Positions 3,001-18,000 of a stretch of DNA of 64,000 bases are shown piece by piece. Source of the DNA: Octopus vulgaris (lineage: Eukaryota); NCBI GenBank assembly GCA_951406725.2, contig OX597838.1, positions 4,402,001 through 4,466,000 of the forward strand, read 5' to 3'. The position numbers are program-made. Within the stretch, counting starts at the first letter, position 1. The number at the start of each line of letters is the position of its first letter.

Positions 3001-6000
3001 TGTATATATATATATATCTATGTATGTATGTATGTATATAATATGTGTACGTATGTATGTATATATATATATATATATATGCACCTTCATGTTTTGGATT
3101 CTATTTTTCCTGTTTGCATTGCCATATCTATATTATATATATATATATACACACACACACACACACACATACATATATAAAAGTTCAGGATTCAAGTGAA
3201 TCAGGTATATGTTTTTTTTTAAGATGTTGAATTCACGTGTATTCACCTGAAGAAAACATTTTTTTCGCATGATGTAATAACTCGCTTCATCCAAAAAAAA
3301 AAAACGTGTTTGAAACAGCTGTAGTGAATGAACCAATTTCGATCTGTTGTGTATATATATATATATATATATACATACAGAGTTTGTTTTCTTATATCAT
3401 AAGAAACGATGGCAGTTAATTAAAAAGGATTTAAACTTTCTTATGAAATGATATAAGTACATACAAAGAGGTATATATATATATATATATATCCAGGGCC
3501 ACTCGGGCAGCTGCTCGGGGCGCTACGTGTTAGTGGGCGCCAAAGAGGGCGTGAGGAAGACAAGGAAATTTCCACGACCTTCAGCTTGTACACATCGAAG
3601 TTCAGCTTGCCGGGGACACCAGCAACCCTAGGGCTGACTCTGTGTGTGTGTGCGTAATGTATATGTAATATATATATATATATAATGTATGTACGTGTAT
3701 GTATGTATAAATGTGTATATATTTATGAGTGTACATATATATGTATATATATATATGTATTTGTATATGTGCGTATATATTAGTTAAGGCATAGGTTTAA
3801 AATGAATTTAAGGTTTTAGCATGCATGTCTCTTTTACTCTTTTACTTGTTTCAGTCATTTGACTGCGGCCATGCTGGAGCACCGCCTTTAATCGAGCAAC
3901 TCGACCCCGGGACTTATTCCTTGTAAGCCCAGTACTTATTCTATCGGTCTCTTTTGCCGAACCGCTAAGTGACGGGGACATAAACACACCAGCATCGGTT
4001 GTCAAGCAATGCTAGGGGGACAAACACAGACACACAAACATATACACACACATACATATATATATATATATATATATATATATACATATATACGACGGGC
4101 TTCTTTCAGTTTCCGTCTACCAAATCCACTCACAAGGCCTTGGTCGGCCCGAGGCTATAGTAGAAGACACTTGCCCAAGATGCCACGCAGTGGGACTGAA
4201 CCCGGAACCATGTGGTTGGTAAACAAGCTACTTACCACACAGCCACTCCTGCGCCTATATACACACATATACACATGCATGCTCCTCTGAAACTTATATT
4301 TATATATCTTGATACACCCCCCCACACACACACACATCTGTATATCTTCACACGCGTGCGTACACATACAAACACACACACACACGTACGCCATCTTTTC
4401 ATCCATTTCCATCTCAGACATGGACCTCATTCTTTGTGTTGTCGATGTCTTGGTACAAAGTCTGATCGTCGCAACAATCGTCTGCTACGTTTCTGTATAT
4501 CATGCCCTCGTTTTGCCACTGTTGCAGCGACGACGACGACGATAAAGACGGTGATGGCGACGACGAAAGTGACGAGGCAGCGTTCGTCTTTGCAACGTCG
4601 TTGCTGTGTCCGGCTTCTTCGCCATCGAACATGGCGTTTTGGTAGACGTGCGACTGGACGACGGCAGCGCGCCGTTGTTTTCTTGGTTGTCGCGTGTCAG
4701 GGCACTTAATGCAGTCACTGTGCGATGGGCTGTTGTTGTTGTTGTTGCAATTGCTGTTGTTGTTGTTGCTGTTGTTATTGTTGCTGTTGCTATATGGAAC
4801 GCTGTAAATGATGTCACTTTCGTCCTCCTGCTCGTCATCCTCTTCTTTACTGTTCAGATAGATATAGATTCCACTGTCGCAGGTTTTGCTGCGACTCCCT
4901 TCGATGCTGTCATCATCCCCATTATTGTTTTTGCGGTCATCACCAGCACCAGCGCCACCACCATCAGCAGTATCGTCACCACGATCGTCGGACGATTTCT
5001 GGTTGTTAAATTTAGAACGAGATTTTGGTACGTTGTAAGTATCTTCATTTTTCGTCTTTGCAAGGTCTGTTAGTTCCATAAATTCGCCTTTAGCCTTATC
5101 ACTTCTTCCACTGCCATCCTTACCACGACCACCTCTACCGTTGCCGTTAACATCCGTCTTGTTATCTTGGTTGATGTCTTCGTACGTTGCATAGTGCAAT
5201 GGCTGCGAAGTGTTGTTGGTGCTGCTCTTAATTTCTGAGTATATATCATCGTTGTCGTTGTTAGCAGAGGTTCCTTCAGAACTTTCCGGCCTCTCGTTGA
5301 CGTAAATATCTGAAGAACTACCACAATTCTGTTCAGGCTCCTCTCTTATCCTGCAGGTTTTCGCATTTCCTTGCCCAAATTTTGGATCAGGGAGCACATA
5401 AAGTGTGTCTCCTCGGGTCCTGCCGCCGCAGTTTCCTTCCTCGAGGTCATCAAATCTGTACCTAAAAAAAAAGAAGAAAAACAATTAGAGCAAAATTAAA
5501 AAAAAACAACATAGGACTTATTTATTTAACAATGGTTAAATACTGTTCTGTTGATTTTGTTGTTATTGTTGTTGTTTGGGTTGATGCAGTGAAGTAGCGA
5601 AAGGATGGTGTTGCTTGGTTTGGCATAGTGTAGTATGAAATATTACACAGGTTGGGGTTAGTGGTGTATAAGAGATGTTAAAACTAACATATATACACGC
5701 ATATTCTTAAATAGATACATATATGTATATGTGTGTGCGTATATACTCACACAAACACGTATATATATATATATATATATATATATATATATATATATAT
5801 ATATATATACATACATATGTATATATGTGTATGTGTGTGTGTATATGGAGAAACAAGCAGATGAAAAATGGAGTTTAAATGGATGTGATTGCTGATTTAT
5901 TTGAACGTTGTAGAAAGATGGCATTTTTTAAAAAACACATTACTAATAGATTTGAAGTTTAAAGCTCAAAAAAGTTAAGGAAAAAAAACGTAAGATGAAC

Positions 6001-15000: not shown

Positions 15001-18000
15001 ATATATATATATATATATATATATATATATATATATATATACACACTTGAAATTTATAGAAAGACGAAAGACGAAGACAGGTGTATGAACAACAAGCTGG
15101 TGTAATAGTTTGATGTTCGTGTGTGCGTCTTTGTGCTTTGTTTGTCCGCTCGACAACCGGTGCTGGTTCGTTTATGACCTTGTAATTTAGCGGTTCGGCA
15201 AAAGAGACCGGTAGTAAAACAAGAGCAACAGCAACAAGCAAGGAAAAGAAAGAGAAGAGAAAAGAAGAGAAGGCAAAACGAAAGCTCTGAAATAATTACT
15301 TGAAATGCAGAGGTTGTCCTTCTTCGTGAAACCTTTACAACAGTGGGCCTTCATTCTGTAAATGATCTTCGTTCTCCTTTCTAGCCGAGAAAGTCGTTGT
15401 AAACTGAAAAGAAGATTAGATTTTTAAGAGCTTTTTAAATTTCAATGACGACGTAGCAGAGTCGTTAAGAGGTACGTTTCGCGACCAGTTGGATGTCAGT
15501 TTCAGTTGTACCGTGCAGCACTCTTTGTCCGACCAAAGACTTGTCAGTGAATTTAGGTAACAGCATACATACATACATACATACATACATACATACATAC
15601 ATACATACATACATACATACATACATACATAAATACATACATATATATATATATATATATATATATATATATGAATAAATAAATAAATGGAGTTGAACGA
15701 AGATGTTAACAAAATTCCTTTACTCTCGACATATGTTTCGAAGACAACATGGTTTTATTCCAAAGGAATAAACGGTGCAAGATGCAATCTTCTCATCAGA
15801 AAAGAAAGAGAGCCTCTTTCTGACGTGTTTCTGGCGTGAATTTGCTACCCTGGTATCGGTTCATCGAATTTTCCATGTTGACGGTAAACATAGGATAATT
15901 CATTCACCTATCGATATATATATATATATATATATATATATATATATACTTTATTTAAAAGCAGCAGAAATATAACAATGGGGGTCTTTACCCTTCATGC
16001 TATATCCAGGAATCGAAACGGTGATCTCATGATTGTGAGTACAACAGCCTAACCACTAGGCCACGCGTCTGTGTGTGTACGTATGTATGTGTGCGTGTAT
16101 GCATGTACGTACGTACGTACGTACGTATGTATGTATGTATGTATGTATGCATGTACGTACATACGTGTGTGTGCTTGTGTTTATCCCCTCACTACATGAC
16201 AACCGCTGTTAGTTTGTTTACGTTCCATAACTTAACAGTTGTATATAGGAGACCGATAAAATAAGTACCAGGCTTTAAAAAGAACCCTAAATACCGGGGG
16301 ACAATTTGTTCGACTAAAACTCTTGGCGGTGGTACCCCAGCATGGCCGCAGCAGTCCAACGACTGAAAGAAGTAAAGGTTAAAAGTTACAGAAACCAGAC
16401 ACGTTCCTTACCTGTATACGGTTTTACAAAACACAATCAATTTGCATTTTCGTGTGTGGACAATTCTGGTGAAATATACACGCTCTAAATATGTAACAGT
16501 GTGCCTAGAGAAAAGAGAAAGAGAAAATAGATAAATTAATAAATGATTAAATAAATAAATGTAAAGAATATAAATAAAGAAGAGGCCAAGTGCTAAGAAA
16601 TGGTAAAATCAAAATAAGCAACAGGATATCAAGTAGTAATGCAGTACGACCGTTTCAAGCGACTCCATTTAATTGAACAATGCACTCGTTACATCAATTT
16701 TAATTCAGTGCCATCTTCAGCAGCACAAATAAATAAATGGAATTTTAACAAGTAGAACACATTAATATTATTTTTCTTAAATATTTTAACAGAGCAAAAA
16801 GATGCAAGAAATTCATGCTGTCGCTATTGTAGCTAAGAATAGACTACAGCTTCTAAGAATATATACATATATATATATATATATATATATATATATATAT
16901 ATATATATATATATATATATATATATATATATATATATATATATGCGCGCGCGAGTGTATGTAGTTTAGGACAATCAAGAAGTTGTCCTATTATGACAGC
17001 TTACTGATTGTCCTAAACTATACATTTATAAATTCCTCTATTTACCGATATCGAGGTCTATTCTTTTGTTGTCATATTGTTATATGTATGTATGTATGTA
17101 TGTATGTATGTATGTATGTATGTATGTATGTATGTATGTATGTATGTATGTATATACATACATATATATATATATATCTACGACGGGCTTCTTTTAGTTT
17201 AACCAAATCCATTCACAAGGCTTTGGTCGGCCCAAGGCTATAGTAGAGAACTCTTGTCCAAAGTGCCACGCAGTGGGACTGAACCCGGAACCATGCACCT
17301 ATGTTTAAAAAATCCTCTTATATTTTTATAATGAAATATTATTAGGAATTGTATAATTAAGAAATTCTTAAAATATTTTGTGTATTGTAAAAGCACGACT
17401 AATTAAATGCAGGGCTTTATATGGATCCCAAAGAGCTATAAGAACCCCAATTGAGAACCATTGCACTAAACTAAAAATTCTTCAAGGCAGTGCCCCAGCT
17501 TGGCCATAGTCTAATGACTGAAACAAGTAAAAGATAAAAGACACCACCTCCAAACAGTCTGGTACTAAACGCCGACACTACAGAGGAGTTAAGATTAGGG
17601 TCAGGTTTAGGGTTGGGGTTAGGGTTAGGGTCATAGAAGTTTTTAAGGGGATGGTACTTACGATATTGTTGAAACACAAACGTTCCGAAGCGGACCAAGC
17701 TCGTTGTCCGTGTTGTTTACAACGCTTGATGTTGACGAAGCTAAAATACACAGCCATGGGAAGACACCGATCCAGAGTTCAATTTTCATGGTGACAGCTT
17801 CCTGATTTTTTTTTAGCTTCTGCCAATAATTTAGCACTGAAAATAATAATAATAATAATAATAATAATAATAATAATAATAATAATAATAATAATAATAA
17901 TAATAATAATAATAATAATAATGATAGTTTCTACATGCAAATAGGCCAGACATTATATTGAAAGACTTCAAGCAAAAATCATGCCTCCTCGTTGATATGG

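What the first reader, a model, noticed from the sequence alone, without database searches (positions are those of the whole stretch)
4414..17789. EMI-only receptor: a Draper/CED-1/Nimrod-like protein with no EGF/NIM repeats
Seen: nine phase-compatible GT-AG exons, several too small or out of frame to appear in the ORF track, join into 629 aa: signal peptide, six-Cys module (NVC..RKC..VFC..YR..HCCKGF..NLC), S/T/P stalk, TM helix and a cytoplasmic tail of about 420 aa. Known: this Cys pattern with CCxG[YWF] is the EMI module found at the N-terminus of CED-1/Draper/MEGF10 and NimA phagocytic receptors, where it is followed by EGF/NIM repeats. Inference: here the EMI domain sits directly on a mucin-like stalk. 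That is an unusual minimal architecture and may be a lineage-specific engulfment, immune or adhesion receptor.
Basis: partly seen in the sequence, partly recalled or inferred. Interest (0 to 1): 0.8.

Follow-up and report, generated by a model that had tools for sequence, protein, structure and literature searches.

The report
Lone EMI-like receptor gene, no EGF
A real-looking gene for a single-pass membrane protein carries one small cysteine-rich head resembling the EMI domain of engulfment and adhesion receptors, has no EGF repeats behind it, and ends in a long flexible tail full of tyrosine docking sites; its exon count and its EMI identity are only partly proven.

Summary
A minus-strand gene runs from the ATG at 17789 to the TGA at 4414. 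Six exons with canonical AG/GT sites join in phase to 550 codons. They encode a signal peptide, a six-Cys module of about 71 aa, a short S/T-rich glycosylated stalk, a TM helix and an acidic tail of about 360 aa.

The six exons are already in frame, and 403 alternative three-exon chains of the needed 237 nt exist in intron 5.

The Cys module fits the published EMI hallmarks in position, size, six Cys as in MEGF10 and multimerin-1, C1-xxxx-[S/T], and CC-x-G-F. It departs from the rest of the WRCCPG(Y/F)xGxxC consensus. Exon-by-exon Pfam and PDB searches found no EMI. An ESM lookup of exon 3 alone pointed weakly to EMI clusters.

No EGF/NIM coding capacity exists in the locus or the window. The tail has 14 Tyr in strongly non-random Src/SH2-type contexts, with no NPxY and no canonical ITAM.

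Verdict: probably a lone-EMI, pTyr-signalling receptor, a new variant of a known kind, still lacking transcript and profile proof.

The parts
17662..17789 (-). Exon 1. ATG in the context gtcACCatgA. Signal peptide with its hydrophobic core at residues 3-17, an NNT sequon, and the first Cys of the module (NVC). Ends with 2 nt (TC) of a split Ser codon.
   Evidence: mean KD 1.93 over 15 aa; donor GTAAGT. The frame stays open upstream through an (ATT)n tract, and an acceptor-like TTTTCAG lies about 50 nt upstream of the ATG, so a 5' non-coding exon or further coding exon is not excluded.
16412..16504 (-). Exon 2, 93 nt, phase 2 to 2. Middle of the Cys module, with RKC-x5-C (VFC).
   Evidence: 17 of 17 pyrimidines before the AG; donor GTAAGG. 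No Pfam hit. PDB gave only a chance-level hit. No ESM hit.
15300..15403 (-). Exon 3, 104 nt, phase 2 to 1. IIYRMKAH-CC-KGF-x6-C, the C-terminal part of the Cys module.
   Evidence: No Pfam or PDB hit alone. The nearest named ESM cluster carries EMI in 97% and EGF_PEAR1L in 98% of members, score 0.76.
10691..10807 (-). Exon 4, 117 nt, phase 1 to 1 (cassette-compatible). S/T-rich stalk with an NQT sequon and no Cys.
   Evidence: S+T+P 0.37. Acceptor TTCTCCAG, donor GTGAGT, outside repeats. Skipping it would also keep the frame, so its inclusion is inferred.
9901..10063 (-). Exon 5, 163 nt, phase 1 to 2. NSS sequon, end of the stalk, TM helix IAVVVSAAVAACLLAAIIV, then the stop-transfer RRRKK.
   Evidence: mean KD 2.97 over 19 aa. 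Pfam gave only sub-threshold TM-type hits (SKG6 E=0.21).
4414..5461 (-). Exon 6, 1048 nt including the TGA. 348-aa acidic, Asn/Ser/Asp-rich cytoplasmic tail with 14 Tyr in kinase/SH2-type contexts.
   Evidence: (AF2 single sequence, mean pLDDT 39.6, 315 of 348 residues below 50).
7374..7520 (-). Best candidate for an extra cytoplasmic exon, 147 nt, phase 2 to 2. It holds DENYYVSM (a YxxM site). Unproven.
   Evidence: It has the strongest acceptor score among non-repeat candidates (0.98), donor GTATGT, is open only in the needed phase, and lies outside repeats. It would give 599 aa.
13352..13402 (-). Candidate extra stalk mini-exon, 51 nt, phase 1 to 1, T/P-rich (TTPAPSTTDMPTTKTF). Unproven.
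   Evidence: donor GTGAGT. A second candidate at 12972-12814 (159 nt, polar) is in the same call. Neither has a Cys pattern.
11106..11621 (-). 171-codon ORF in intron 3. From recall, it looks like the C-terminal part of a LINE reverse-transcriptase ORF. It is not part of the gene.
   Evidence: No Pfam family. The LINE reading comes from memory, not from a call.
9565..9891 (.). Interspersed repeat copy directly downstream of exon 5, with up to 7 overlapping matches elsewhere in the window. It overlaps the lax candidate exon 9856-9806.

Best explanation
This is a genuine protein-coding gene for a type I single-pass membrane glycoprotein. Behind a cleavable signal peptide sits one six-cysteine module of about 71 aa, of the EMI type seen at the N-terminus of MEGF10, Draper, CED-1, PEAR1 and NimA. 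It is joined directly to a short S/T-rich, N-glycosylated stalk, without any EGF or NIM repeat. A TM helix follows, then a long, acidic, disordered tail.

Proposed mechanism, all inferred. The lone EMI-like head binds a protein ligand or a partner on another cell, as the EMI domains of PEAR1, NimA and MEGF10 do. Clustering lets a Src-family kinase phosphorylate the many [I/L/V/T]-Y-x-x-[L/I/V/P] and Y-x-N sites in the tail. The phosphorylated tail then acts as a docking scaffold for SH2 proteins. From recalled specificities, YxN would recruit Grb2/Drk, YxxP would recruit Crk/Nck/Abl, and the C-terminal YRNV-x10-YQDI pair would recruit a tandem-SH2 kinase or phosphatase.

Shown here: the exon structure, the topology signals, the Cys pattern, the absence of EGF coding capacity, and the non-random Tyr contexts. 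Inferred: homology to EMI, ligand binding, phosphorylation and the adaptors.
For: Gene. Six in-phase exons have canonical sites and give 550 codons. All are outside repeats. The terminal exon lies in a 356-codon ORF that is not low-complexity.

Topology. Signal-peptide and TM hydrophobicity, RRRKK after the TM helix, and three sequons, all on the luminal side.

Head module. The mature ectodomain has exactly six Cys (1 in E1, 2 in E2, 3 in E3). From, the spacing is C-x24-C-x5-C-x25-CC-x9-C, spanning about 71 aa and starting about 14 residues after the predicted cleavage region. Published EMI features it meets:
- N-terminal and single, about 80 aa.
- Six Cys in MMRN1 and MEGF10.
- Three disulfides, and C1-xxxx-[S/T]-x conserved. 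Here this reads C-VSTI-S, with the Ser spanning the E1/E2 junction.
- The characteristic 'CC', followed here by x-G-F.
In the ESM Atlas, exon 3 alone has as nearest named cluster one with EMI in 97% of members (0.76; all ten best hits share the family or clan).

No EGF.
- No EGF or NIM pattern falls in any exon-like context in the six frames of the window.
- No phase 1-1 AG..GT exon with an EGF-like Cys pattern exists in intron 3 or 4. Of the 9 rows with 5 or more Cys, 4 are microsatellite and 5 are an alternative frame over the ORF read as a LINE remnant.
- None of the strong-site candidates carries a Cys pattern.

Tail.
- 11 of 14 Tyr have I/L/V/T/M at -1 (0 of 5000 shuffles reach this).
- 12 of 14 have L/I/V/P at +3 or N at +2 (0 of 5000).
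- There are 5 YxN, 3 YxxP and 4 YxxL/I sites; net charge is -26.
- AF2 predicts disorder.

Function of EMI alone. LOXL2 binds mainly the EMI domain of PEAR1. NimA-driven cell aggregation needs its EMI domain. The MEGF10 ectodomain with EMI affects adhesion and fusion more than the EGF-only construct.
Against: - No EMI profile hit for any exon, even at E up to 10.
- No EMI chain in the PDB for E2 or E3, and no ESM hit for E2.
- The ESM score for E3 is under the tool's 0.9 line, and a third of shuffled proteins also get ten concordant hits.
- The printed consensus WRCCPG(Y/F)xGxxC is only partly met. W, R, P and the second G are absent, and there are 9 rather than 7 residues from CC to the last Cys.
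- The strict CC motif occurs once by chance elsewhere in the window.
- The E3-E4 and E4-E5 junctions rest on splice signals and phase alone.
- The acidic-residue enrichment before Tyr is not significant (2717 of 5000 shuffles reach it).
- The AF2 run was single-sequence, which is weak evidence for disorder.
Confidence: 0.55

Rival explanations
1. The gene is real, but the head is an orphan, lineage-specific six-Cys module that merely shares CC-x-G-F with EMI. The protein is then a small-ectodomain transmembrane pTyr scaffold with no kinship to Draper, MEGF10 or EMILIN.
For: No EMI hit in Pfam or PDB exon by exon. No ESM hit for E2. The EMILIN-type consensus is only partly met. CCxG[YWF]x4-10C occurs by chance at 61415. 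Even the CED-1-type 'EMI' is disputed by the EMILIN authors.
Against: Position, size, Cys number, C-x5-C, C1-xxxx-[S/T] and CC-x-G-F coincide in the right order. The ESM lead points to EMI and to nothing else. A 30-34 aa third of a 75-aa domain is not expected to reach HMMER thresholds, so the negative searches are weak.
Confidence: 0.2
2. The gene model is incomplete or chimeric. E1-E3 (a secreted or EGF-bearing EMI protein) and E4-E6 belong to different transcripts, or further ectodomain exons lie outside the window or among unrecognised cassette exons. The 'EMI-only' architecture would then be an artefact of sequence-only modelling.
For: - Intron 3 is 4.5 kb, and its junction is supported only by splice signals and a 1-in-3 phase match.
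- Phase 1-1 cassette candidates exist in it (13402-13352 and 12972-12814).
- The frame upstream of the ATG is open, and an acceptor-like site precedes it.
Against: - E4-E6 have no signal peptide of their own.
- No other exon set or paralogue is visible in 64 kb. Apart from each query's own exon, no tblastn hit scored below E=0.1, and 10 other ORFs had no Pfam family.
- No EGF-like coding capacity exists anywhere in the window.
- E1 has a good start context followed at once by a signal peptide.
Confidence: 0.15
3. The locus is a decaying remnant of a MEGF/Draper-like gene that lost its EGF exons and is no longer functional.
For: The introns are loaded with repeats, a probable LINE fragment and microsatellites. 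A coding (AAC/AAT)n-type tract lies inside E6. NPxY and a canonical ITAM are absent.
Against: The 550-codon frame is intact across six exons, with all ten splice sites canonical. The Tyr contexts are strongly non-random (0 of 5000 shuffles), which argues for ongoing selection.
Confidence: 0.07

Closest known systems
MEGF10 / Draper / CED-1 / PEAR1 / NimA (EMI plus EGF/NIM engulfment and adhesion receptors)
   Same: Type I single-pass topology. A single N-terminal EMI-type module with six Cys, as printed for MEGF10. A tyrosine-rich tail expected to be written by Src-family kinases and read by SH2 proteins (model). In these proteins the EMI head itself binds ligand or mediates adhesion.
   Different: There are no EGF or NIM repeats at all, against 15 in PEAR1, 17 in MEGF10, and 1 NIM plus 2 EGF in NimA. 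There is no NPxY and no canonical ITAM. Instead there are 5 YxN, 3 YxxP and an ITAM-like YxxV-x10-YxxI. The CC motif lacks W, R and P.
EMILIN / multimerin / EMID1 (EDEN superfamily, secreted EMI proteins)
   Same: The EMI module is N-terminal and single. It has six Cys as in multimerin-1, the C1-xxxx-[S/T] position used for O-fucosylation by POFUT3/4, and the 'CC'.
   Different: Those proteins are secreted, trimeric matrix proteins with coiled-coil, collagen or gC1q parts. This protein has a TM helix and a signalling tail, and no such Pfam domain in any exon. Only part of WRCCPG(Y/F)xGxxC is present.
Nimrod B/C and Eater type proteins (CCxGY motif plus NIM repeats)
   Same: Signal peptide followed by a CC-x-G-aromatic motif near the N-terminus.
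   Different: The defining NIM repeats (CxPxCxxxCxNGxCxxPxxCxCxxGY) are absent. This protein keeps a full-length EMI-sized module rather than only the CCxGY remnant.
Transmembrane adaptor proteins such as LAT and PAG (functional analogy only, from recall)
   Same: Long disordered cytoplasmic tails studded with YxN and other SH2-docking tyrosines.
   Different: Those have ectodomains of a few residues and no Cys-rich head. Here there is a folded-looking ectodomain of about 180 aa. No homology is claimed or tested.

Membership tests
EMI domain (Pfam PF07546; EMILIN/MEGF type) | Single copy at the N-terminus, directly behind the signal peptide | tested here: met
   The module starts at NVC, residue 36-38 of E1, about 14 residues after the signal-peptide c-region. 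There is no second copy in the window. The feature is as printed.
EMI domain (Pfam PF07546; EMILIN/MEGF type) | About 75-80 aa with seven regularly spaced Cys, or six in multimerin-1 and MEGF10 | tested here: met
   Six Cys in the mature ectodomain, spaced C-x24-C-x5-C-x25-CC-x9-C over about 71 aa. This comes from arithmetic, with the feature taken. The spacing depends on the E1/E2 and E2/E3 junctions.
EMI domain (Pfam PF07546; EMILIN/MEGF type) | C-terminal consensus WRCCPG(Y/F)xGxxC | tested here: inconclusive
   AH-CC-K-G-F-TKKDNL-C. CC, G and F are present. W, R, P and the second G are absent, and 9 rather than 7 residues lie between CC and the last Cys.
EMI domain (Pfam PF07546; EMILIN/MEGF type) | C1-xxxx-[S/T]-x (O-fucose site) | tested here: met
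   C-V-S-T-I-S-H. The Ser is the split codon TC|G across the E1/E2 junction.
EMI domain (Pfam PF07546; EMILIN/MEGF type) | Significant match to the family profile | tested here: inconclusive
Exon by exon, 0 of 3 module exons hit EMI at E up to 10. Each exon holds only about a third of the domain. ESM lead for E3 only (0.76).
EMI domain (Pfam PF07546; EMILIN/MEGF type) | EMI fold with three disulfides | not tested
   This needs the spliced ectodomain, which was left out.
Draper / CED-1 / MEGF10 / PEAR1 receptors | Array of EGF-like or NIM repeats after the EMI domain | tested here: not met
   No EGF or NIM pattern in any exon-like context in the six frames of the 64 kb. No Cys-patterned phase 1-1 exon in introns 3 or 4.
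Draper / CED-1 / MEGF10 / PEAR1 receptors | Single TM helix, type I topology | tested here: met
Draper / CED-1 / MEGF10 / PEAR1 receptors | NPxY motif in the tail (CED-6/GULP docking) | tested here: not met
   0 NPxY in the 348-aa E6 translation, and none in E5 or the candidate exon as read.
Draper / CED-1 / MEGF10 / PEAR1 receptors | ITAM (YxxL/I-x6-12-YxxL/I) or YxxL in the tail | tested here: inconclusive
   0 canonical ITAMs. There are 4 YxxL/I sites and two ITAM-like pairs, YSEI-x15-YEDI and YRNV-x10-YQDI.
Nimrod superfamily | NIM repeats CxPxCxxxCxNGxCxxPxxCxCxxGY behind a CCxGY motif | tested here: not met
   CCKGF is present, but the NIM pattern has 0 matches.
EMILIN / multimerin family | gC1q domain and coiled-coil region; secreted | tested here: not met
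   No C1q or other Pfam family in any exon. A TM helix is present.

The most novel reading that the evidence does not exclude
A lineage-specific minimal receptor in which a lone EMI domain, with no EGF scaffold, is wired through a short glycosylated stalk straight to a multi-phosphotyrosine docking tail of Grb2/Crk/tandem-SH2 type rather than NPxY/CED-6 type. That would make EMI a self-sufficient recognition unit and give a natural 'EMI-only' experiment for engulfment or adhesion signalling.
Probability: 0.3. Interest if true: 0.6.

Novelty: new variant of a known kind. Interest (0 to 1): 0.42.

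Why it matters
In PEAR1, NimA and MEGF10 the EMI head is the part that binds ligand or drives adhesion. It is always studied attached to a long EGF array. A natural receptor that keeps only the EMI module would show that the module works on its own, and it would be a compact tool for finding EMI ligands.

The tail differs from the NPxY/ITAM logic of Draper and CED-1. 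If confirmed, it would suggest that the same head has been coupled to a different pTyr read-out.

If the model is wrong, for example through missing exons or a chimeric model, the finding is just an ordinary MEGF-like gene fragment. My five phrase searches found no paper describing an EMI-plus-TM protein without EGF (6 papers hit, 5 of them listed, all on SCO-spondin, MEGF10 or periostin). That literal search is a weak test of absence from print.

Tried and rejected
Strict splice filters gave 11 exon-phase options, none forming the needed chain. Lax filters gave 403 chains. The reconstruction was abandoned as undeterminable.
- Pfam on each exon and on two candidate exons gave nothing relevant.
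- PDB phmmer with E3 gave 0 hits. With E2 it gave one hit, to MPEG1/perforin-2 (6u23_A residues 413-431, E=1.8). I treated this as chance.
- The ESM Atlas with E2 gave no usable hit.
- A second CCxGW...C at 61415 was checked as a possible paralogous exon and rejected. It has no acceptor or pyrimidine tract, a stop lies 10 codons upstream, and the context looks non-coding.
- tblastn of each exon against the window found no paralogue.
- Rfam on the whole window gave 0 matches.
- Pfam on 10 intronic or neighbouring ORFs gave 0 families.
- The EGF filter silently dropped all CCxG hits, because my complexity filter was too strict for a 5-letter match. They were recounted.
- Fold search of the tail model was not run, because the model is low-confidence.
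- Complex prediction was not used. No binding claim rests on it, and feeding exon pieces as separate chains would be a way round the joined-step rule.
- Genome contigs was not used, because it holds only bacteria and archaea.
- The organism was not determined.

Full report
WHAT IS THERE

The finding's outer coordinates are right. On the minus strand an ATG at 17789 opens a signal-peptide exon, and a TGA at 4416-4414 closes a 356-codon ORF. Reading the junctions base by base and checking them by script gives six exons with canonical AG/GT boundaries.

- E1 17789-17662, 128 nt
- E2 16504-16412, 93 nt
- E3 15403-15300, 104 nt
- E4 10807-10691, 117 nt
- E5 10063-9901, 163 nt
- E6 5461-4414, 1048 nt

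The phases carried into the exons are 0, 2, 2, 1, 1 and 2. The total is 1653 nt, that is 550 codons plus stop, with no in-frame stop in any exon. The split codons read TC|G (Ser), AG|T (Ser), A|TT (Ile), A|CC (Thr) and AG|G (Arg).

All six exons lie outside the interspersed repeats found by self-comparison of the window. None has a second copy in the 64 kb: apart from each exon's hit on itself, the best tblastn hit had E=0.15.

IS IT MORE THAN CHANCE?

For the core of the gene, yes. Of the 17 ORFs of 200 aa or more in the six frames, 14 are microsatellite or low-complexity translations. Of the 3 that are not, the E6 ORF is the longest. Tandem repeats cover only 97 of its 1048 nt.

The order of the parts is also not what random ORFs give. 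A start codon in good context is followed at once by a hydrophobic signal sequence. Three N-glycosylation sequons all lie on the luminal side. A 19-residue stretch has mean Kyte-Doolittle 2.97 and is followed by RRRKK.

THE NINE EXONS AND 629 AA

I could not reproduce them. The six exons already close the frame, so the three further exons (237 nt) are optional.

Strict splice filters in intron 5 (9900-5462) gave 11 exon-phase options and no such chain. Lax filters gave 403 different three-exon chains of exactly 237 nt. Phase compatibility of small exons there therefore carries no information. One recurrent member, 9856-9806, sits in a repeat with up to 7 overlapping matches elsewhere in the window.

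With splice thresholds calibrated on the six accepted exons, the only convincing extra exon is 7520-7374. It is 147 nt and phase 2 to 2, has a strong pyrimidine tract and donor GTATGT, lies outside repeats, and encodes a polar stretch with DENYYVSM. It would give 599 aa.

Two phase 1-1 candidates in intron 3, 13402-13352 (T/P-rich) and 12972-12814 (polar), could lengthen the stalk. None of these can be settled without transcripts.

Upstream of the ATG the frame stays open through an (ATT)n tract, and an acceptor-like TTTTCAG precedes it. A 5' exon therefore cannot be excluded.

THE HEAD MODULE

The mature ectodomain has exactly six Cys: one in E1, two in E2 and three in E3. Counting residues across the junctions gives C-x24-C-x5-C-x25-CC-x9-C. 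The module spans about 71 aa and begins about 14 residues behind the signal-peptide c-region.

I took the definition of EMI from passages of papers, not from memory.

- EMI is a single, always N-terminal module of about 80 aa with seven regularly spaced Cys, or six in multimerin-1. Its consensus is WRCCPG(Y/F)xGxxC (PMC3342094).
- It has three disulfides and a conserved C1-xxxx-[S/T]-x O-fucose site (PMC11949838).
- The 'CC' is characteristic (bioRxiv 10.64898/2026.05.13.724420).
- The MEGF10 EMI has six Cys, like multimerin (PMC13751773).

The module here meets position, singleness, size, Cys number, C1-xxxx-[S/T] (C-VSTI-S, with the Ser spanning the E1/E2 junction) and CC-x-G-F. It lacks W, R, P and the second G of the consensus, and it has nine rather than seven residues before the last Cys.

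DATABASE TESTS OF THE HEAD

These were run exon by exon. The joined step, searching or folding the spliced protein, was left out.

- Pfam: no EMI hit for E1, E2 or E3, even at E up to 10.
- PDB: 0 hits for E3. For E2 there was one chance-level hit to perforin-2/MPEG1 (E=1.8).
- ESM Atlas: for E3 alone the nearest named cluster carries EMI in 97% and EGF_PEAR1L in 98% of its members. All ten best hits agree, but the score is 0.76, which the tool calls a lead only. E2 alone gave nothing.

Each exon holds only about a third of the domain, so these negatives are weak.

One control cuts the other way. CCxG[YWF] occurs 4 times in the six frames of the window. The stricter CCxG[YWF]x4-10C occurs twice, the second time at 61415 in a context with no splice signals. 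The CC motif by itself therefore proves little. The case rests on the ordered combination of features.

NO EGF OR NIM REPEATS

- Pattern scans of all six frames of the 64 kb for EGF cores, six-Cys EGF spacing and the printed NIM consensus found nothing in an exon-like context. The two hits inside the gene span are an alternative frame of the TM exon and a repeat.
- A scan of every AG..GT phase 1-1 segment in intron 3 with five or more Cys gave 9 rows. Four are microsatellite translations, and five are an alternative frame over the intron-3 ORF that I read as a LINE remnant. Intron 4 gave none.
- The strong-site candidates carry no Cys pattern.

E3 ends and E5 begins in phase 1, and E4 is a 1-1 exon. 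From general knowledge, this is the phase class in which EGF exons are usually shuffled in or out without breaking the frame. That is a remark, not a test.

THE TAIL

The E6 translation is 348 aa, with net charge -26, and is rich in Ser, Asn, Asp and Gly. It has no Pfam family. AlphaFold2 predicts it disordered, with mean pLDDT 39.6 and 315 of 348 residues below 50. That run used a single sequence, so it is weak evidence.

The tail holds 14 Tyr.

- 11 of 14 have I/L/V/T/M at -1. None of 5000 shuffles reached this.
- 12 of 14 have L/I/V/P at +3 or N at +2. None of 5000 shuffles reached this.
- Acidic residues before Tyr are not enriched beyond composition (2717 of 5000 shuffles reached the observed value).
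- There are 5 YxN, 3 YxxP and 4 YxxL/I sites.
- There is no NPxY, no ITIM and no canonical ITAM.
- There are two ITAM-like pairs, YSEI-x15-YEDI and the C-terminal YRNV-x10-YQDI.

That an aliphatic residue at -1 suits Src-family kinases, and that YxN, YxxP and YxxM suit Grb2, Crk/Nck and p85 SH2 domains, are recalled facts and come from no call.

HOW IT PROBABLY WORKS

I read this as a type I receptor. Its only folded ectodomain is an EMI-type head on a short glycosylated stalk, and its tail is a multi-phosphotyrosine docking scaffold.

The literature passages I read show that the EMI head is the active part of related receptors. LOXL2 binds mainly the EMI domain of PEAR1 (PMC11324313). NimA-driven cell aggregation requires its EMI domain (PMC13076899). 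The MEGF10 ectodomain with EMI acts on adhesion and fusion more than the EGF-only construct (PMC13751773).

The writer-reader-eraser scheme for Draper and MEGF10 (PMC8092387) is the natural template: ligand-driven clustering, Src-family phosphorylation, SH2 recruitment. The missing NPxY and the abundance of YxN and YxxP suggest a different set of readers. All of this is inference. Nothing here shows binding or phosphorylation.

RIVALS

1. An orphan six-Cys module unrelated to EMI (0.2).
2. An incomplete or chimeric model that hides further ectodomain exons or merges two genes (0.15).
3. A decaying remnant of a MEGF-like gene (0.07). The intact frame, the ten canonical splice sites and the non-random Tyr contexts argue against this.
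4. Pure chance, which I consider excluded.

COMPARISON AND NOVELTY

The protein works like, and probably shares its head with, the MEGF10/Draper/CED-1/PEAR1/NimA group. It fails that family's defining EGF/NIM array and the NPxY feature, so I do not file it as a member. It is not an EMILIN or multimerin (no gC1q; membrane-bound), and it is not a Nimrod B/C or Eater protein (no NIM repeats).

I rate it a new variant of a known kind. Five phrase searches for an EMI-only or EMI-plus-TM protein hit 6 papers; the 5 listed were all about SCO-spondin, MEGF10 or periostin. This is a weak, literal-match test of absence from print.

WHAT STAYED UNCHECKED

- Orthologues, lineage distribution and expression were not examined.
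- The supplementary tables listing EMI and EMI-like proteins (the papers) could not be seen.
- The organism was not determined.

Noticed in passing
window 16414-16503 (-), exon 2: The stretch RKCKLIVFCKTV matches RKCTLLVFCKTV of perforin-2/MPEG1 (PDB 6u23_A residues 413-431), with 10 of 12 residues identical. The whole-sequence E-value is 1.8, so it is compatible with chance, but it is striking for an immune protein family that, from recall, is common in molluscs.
   Followed up: partly
window 61377-61415 (-): A second CC-A-G-W...NLC string lies in an open frame on the same strand, 44 kb upstream of the gene. It has no splice signals and a stop 10 codons before it. I judged it a chance match and used it as a control for the CC motif.
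   Followed up: yes
window 4731-4789 (inside exon 6): An imperfect trinucleotide array (period 3, 19.7 copies, 75% matches) encodes the Asn/Ser run NSNNNNSNNNNSNCNNNNNS in the tail. It is a likely site of length polymorphism.
   Followed up: partly
window 11106-11621 (-), intron 3: A 171-codon ORF that, from recall, resembles the C-terminal part of a LINE reverse-transcriptase ORF. It has no Pfam family at E up to 0.01. A 278-nt repeat, 11628-11905, lies just beside it.
   Followed up: partly
window 4000-4260, 9565-9891, 13681-13962, 16862-17295 and others: A family of short interspersed repeats has up to 13 overlapping matches elsewhere in the 64 kb. Several copies abut exons (downstream of E5, E2 and E3). 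Translated, they give recurring strings such as [14 protein letters not shown], which could be mistaken for exons.
   Followed up: partly
window 62224-64000: A tetranucleotide array, (GTAT)n, has about 444 copies at 98% identity and runs off the end of the window. It produces ORFs of about 600 aa in several frames. The window as a whole is microsatellite-rich, and Rfam found no RNA family in it.
   Followed up: partly
window 17795-17930: A long (ATT)n tract lies directly upstream of the start codon and keeps the reading frame open. An acceptor-like TTTTCAG lies about 50 nt before the ATG, which hints at a separate 5' exon.
   Followed up: no
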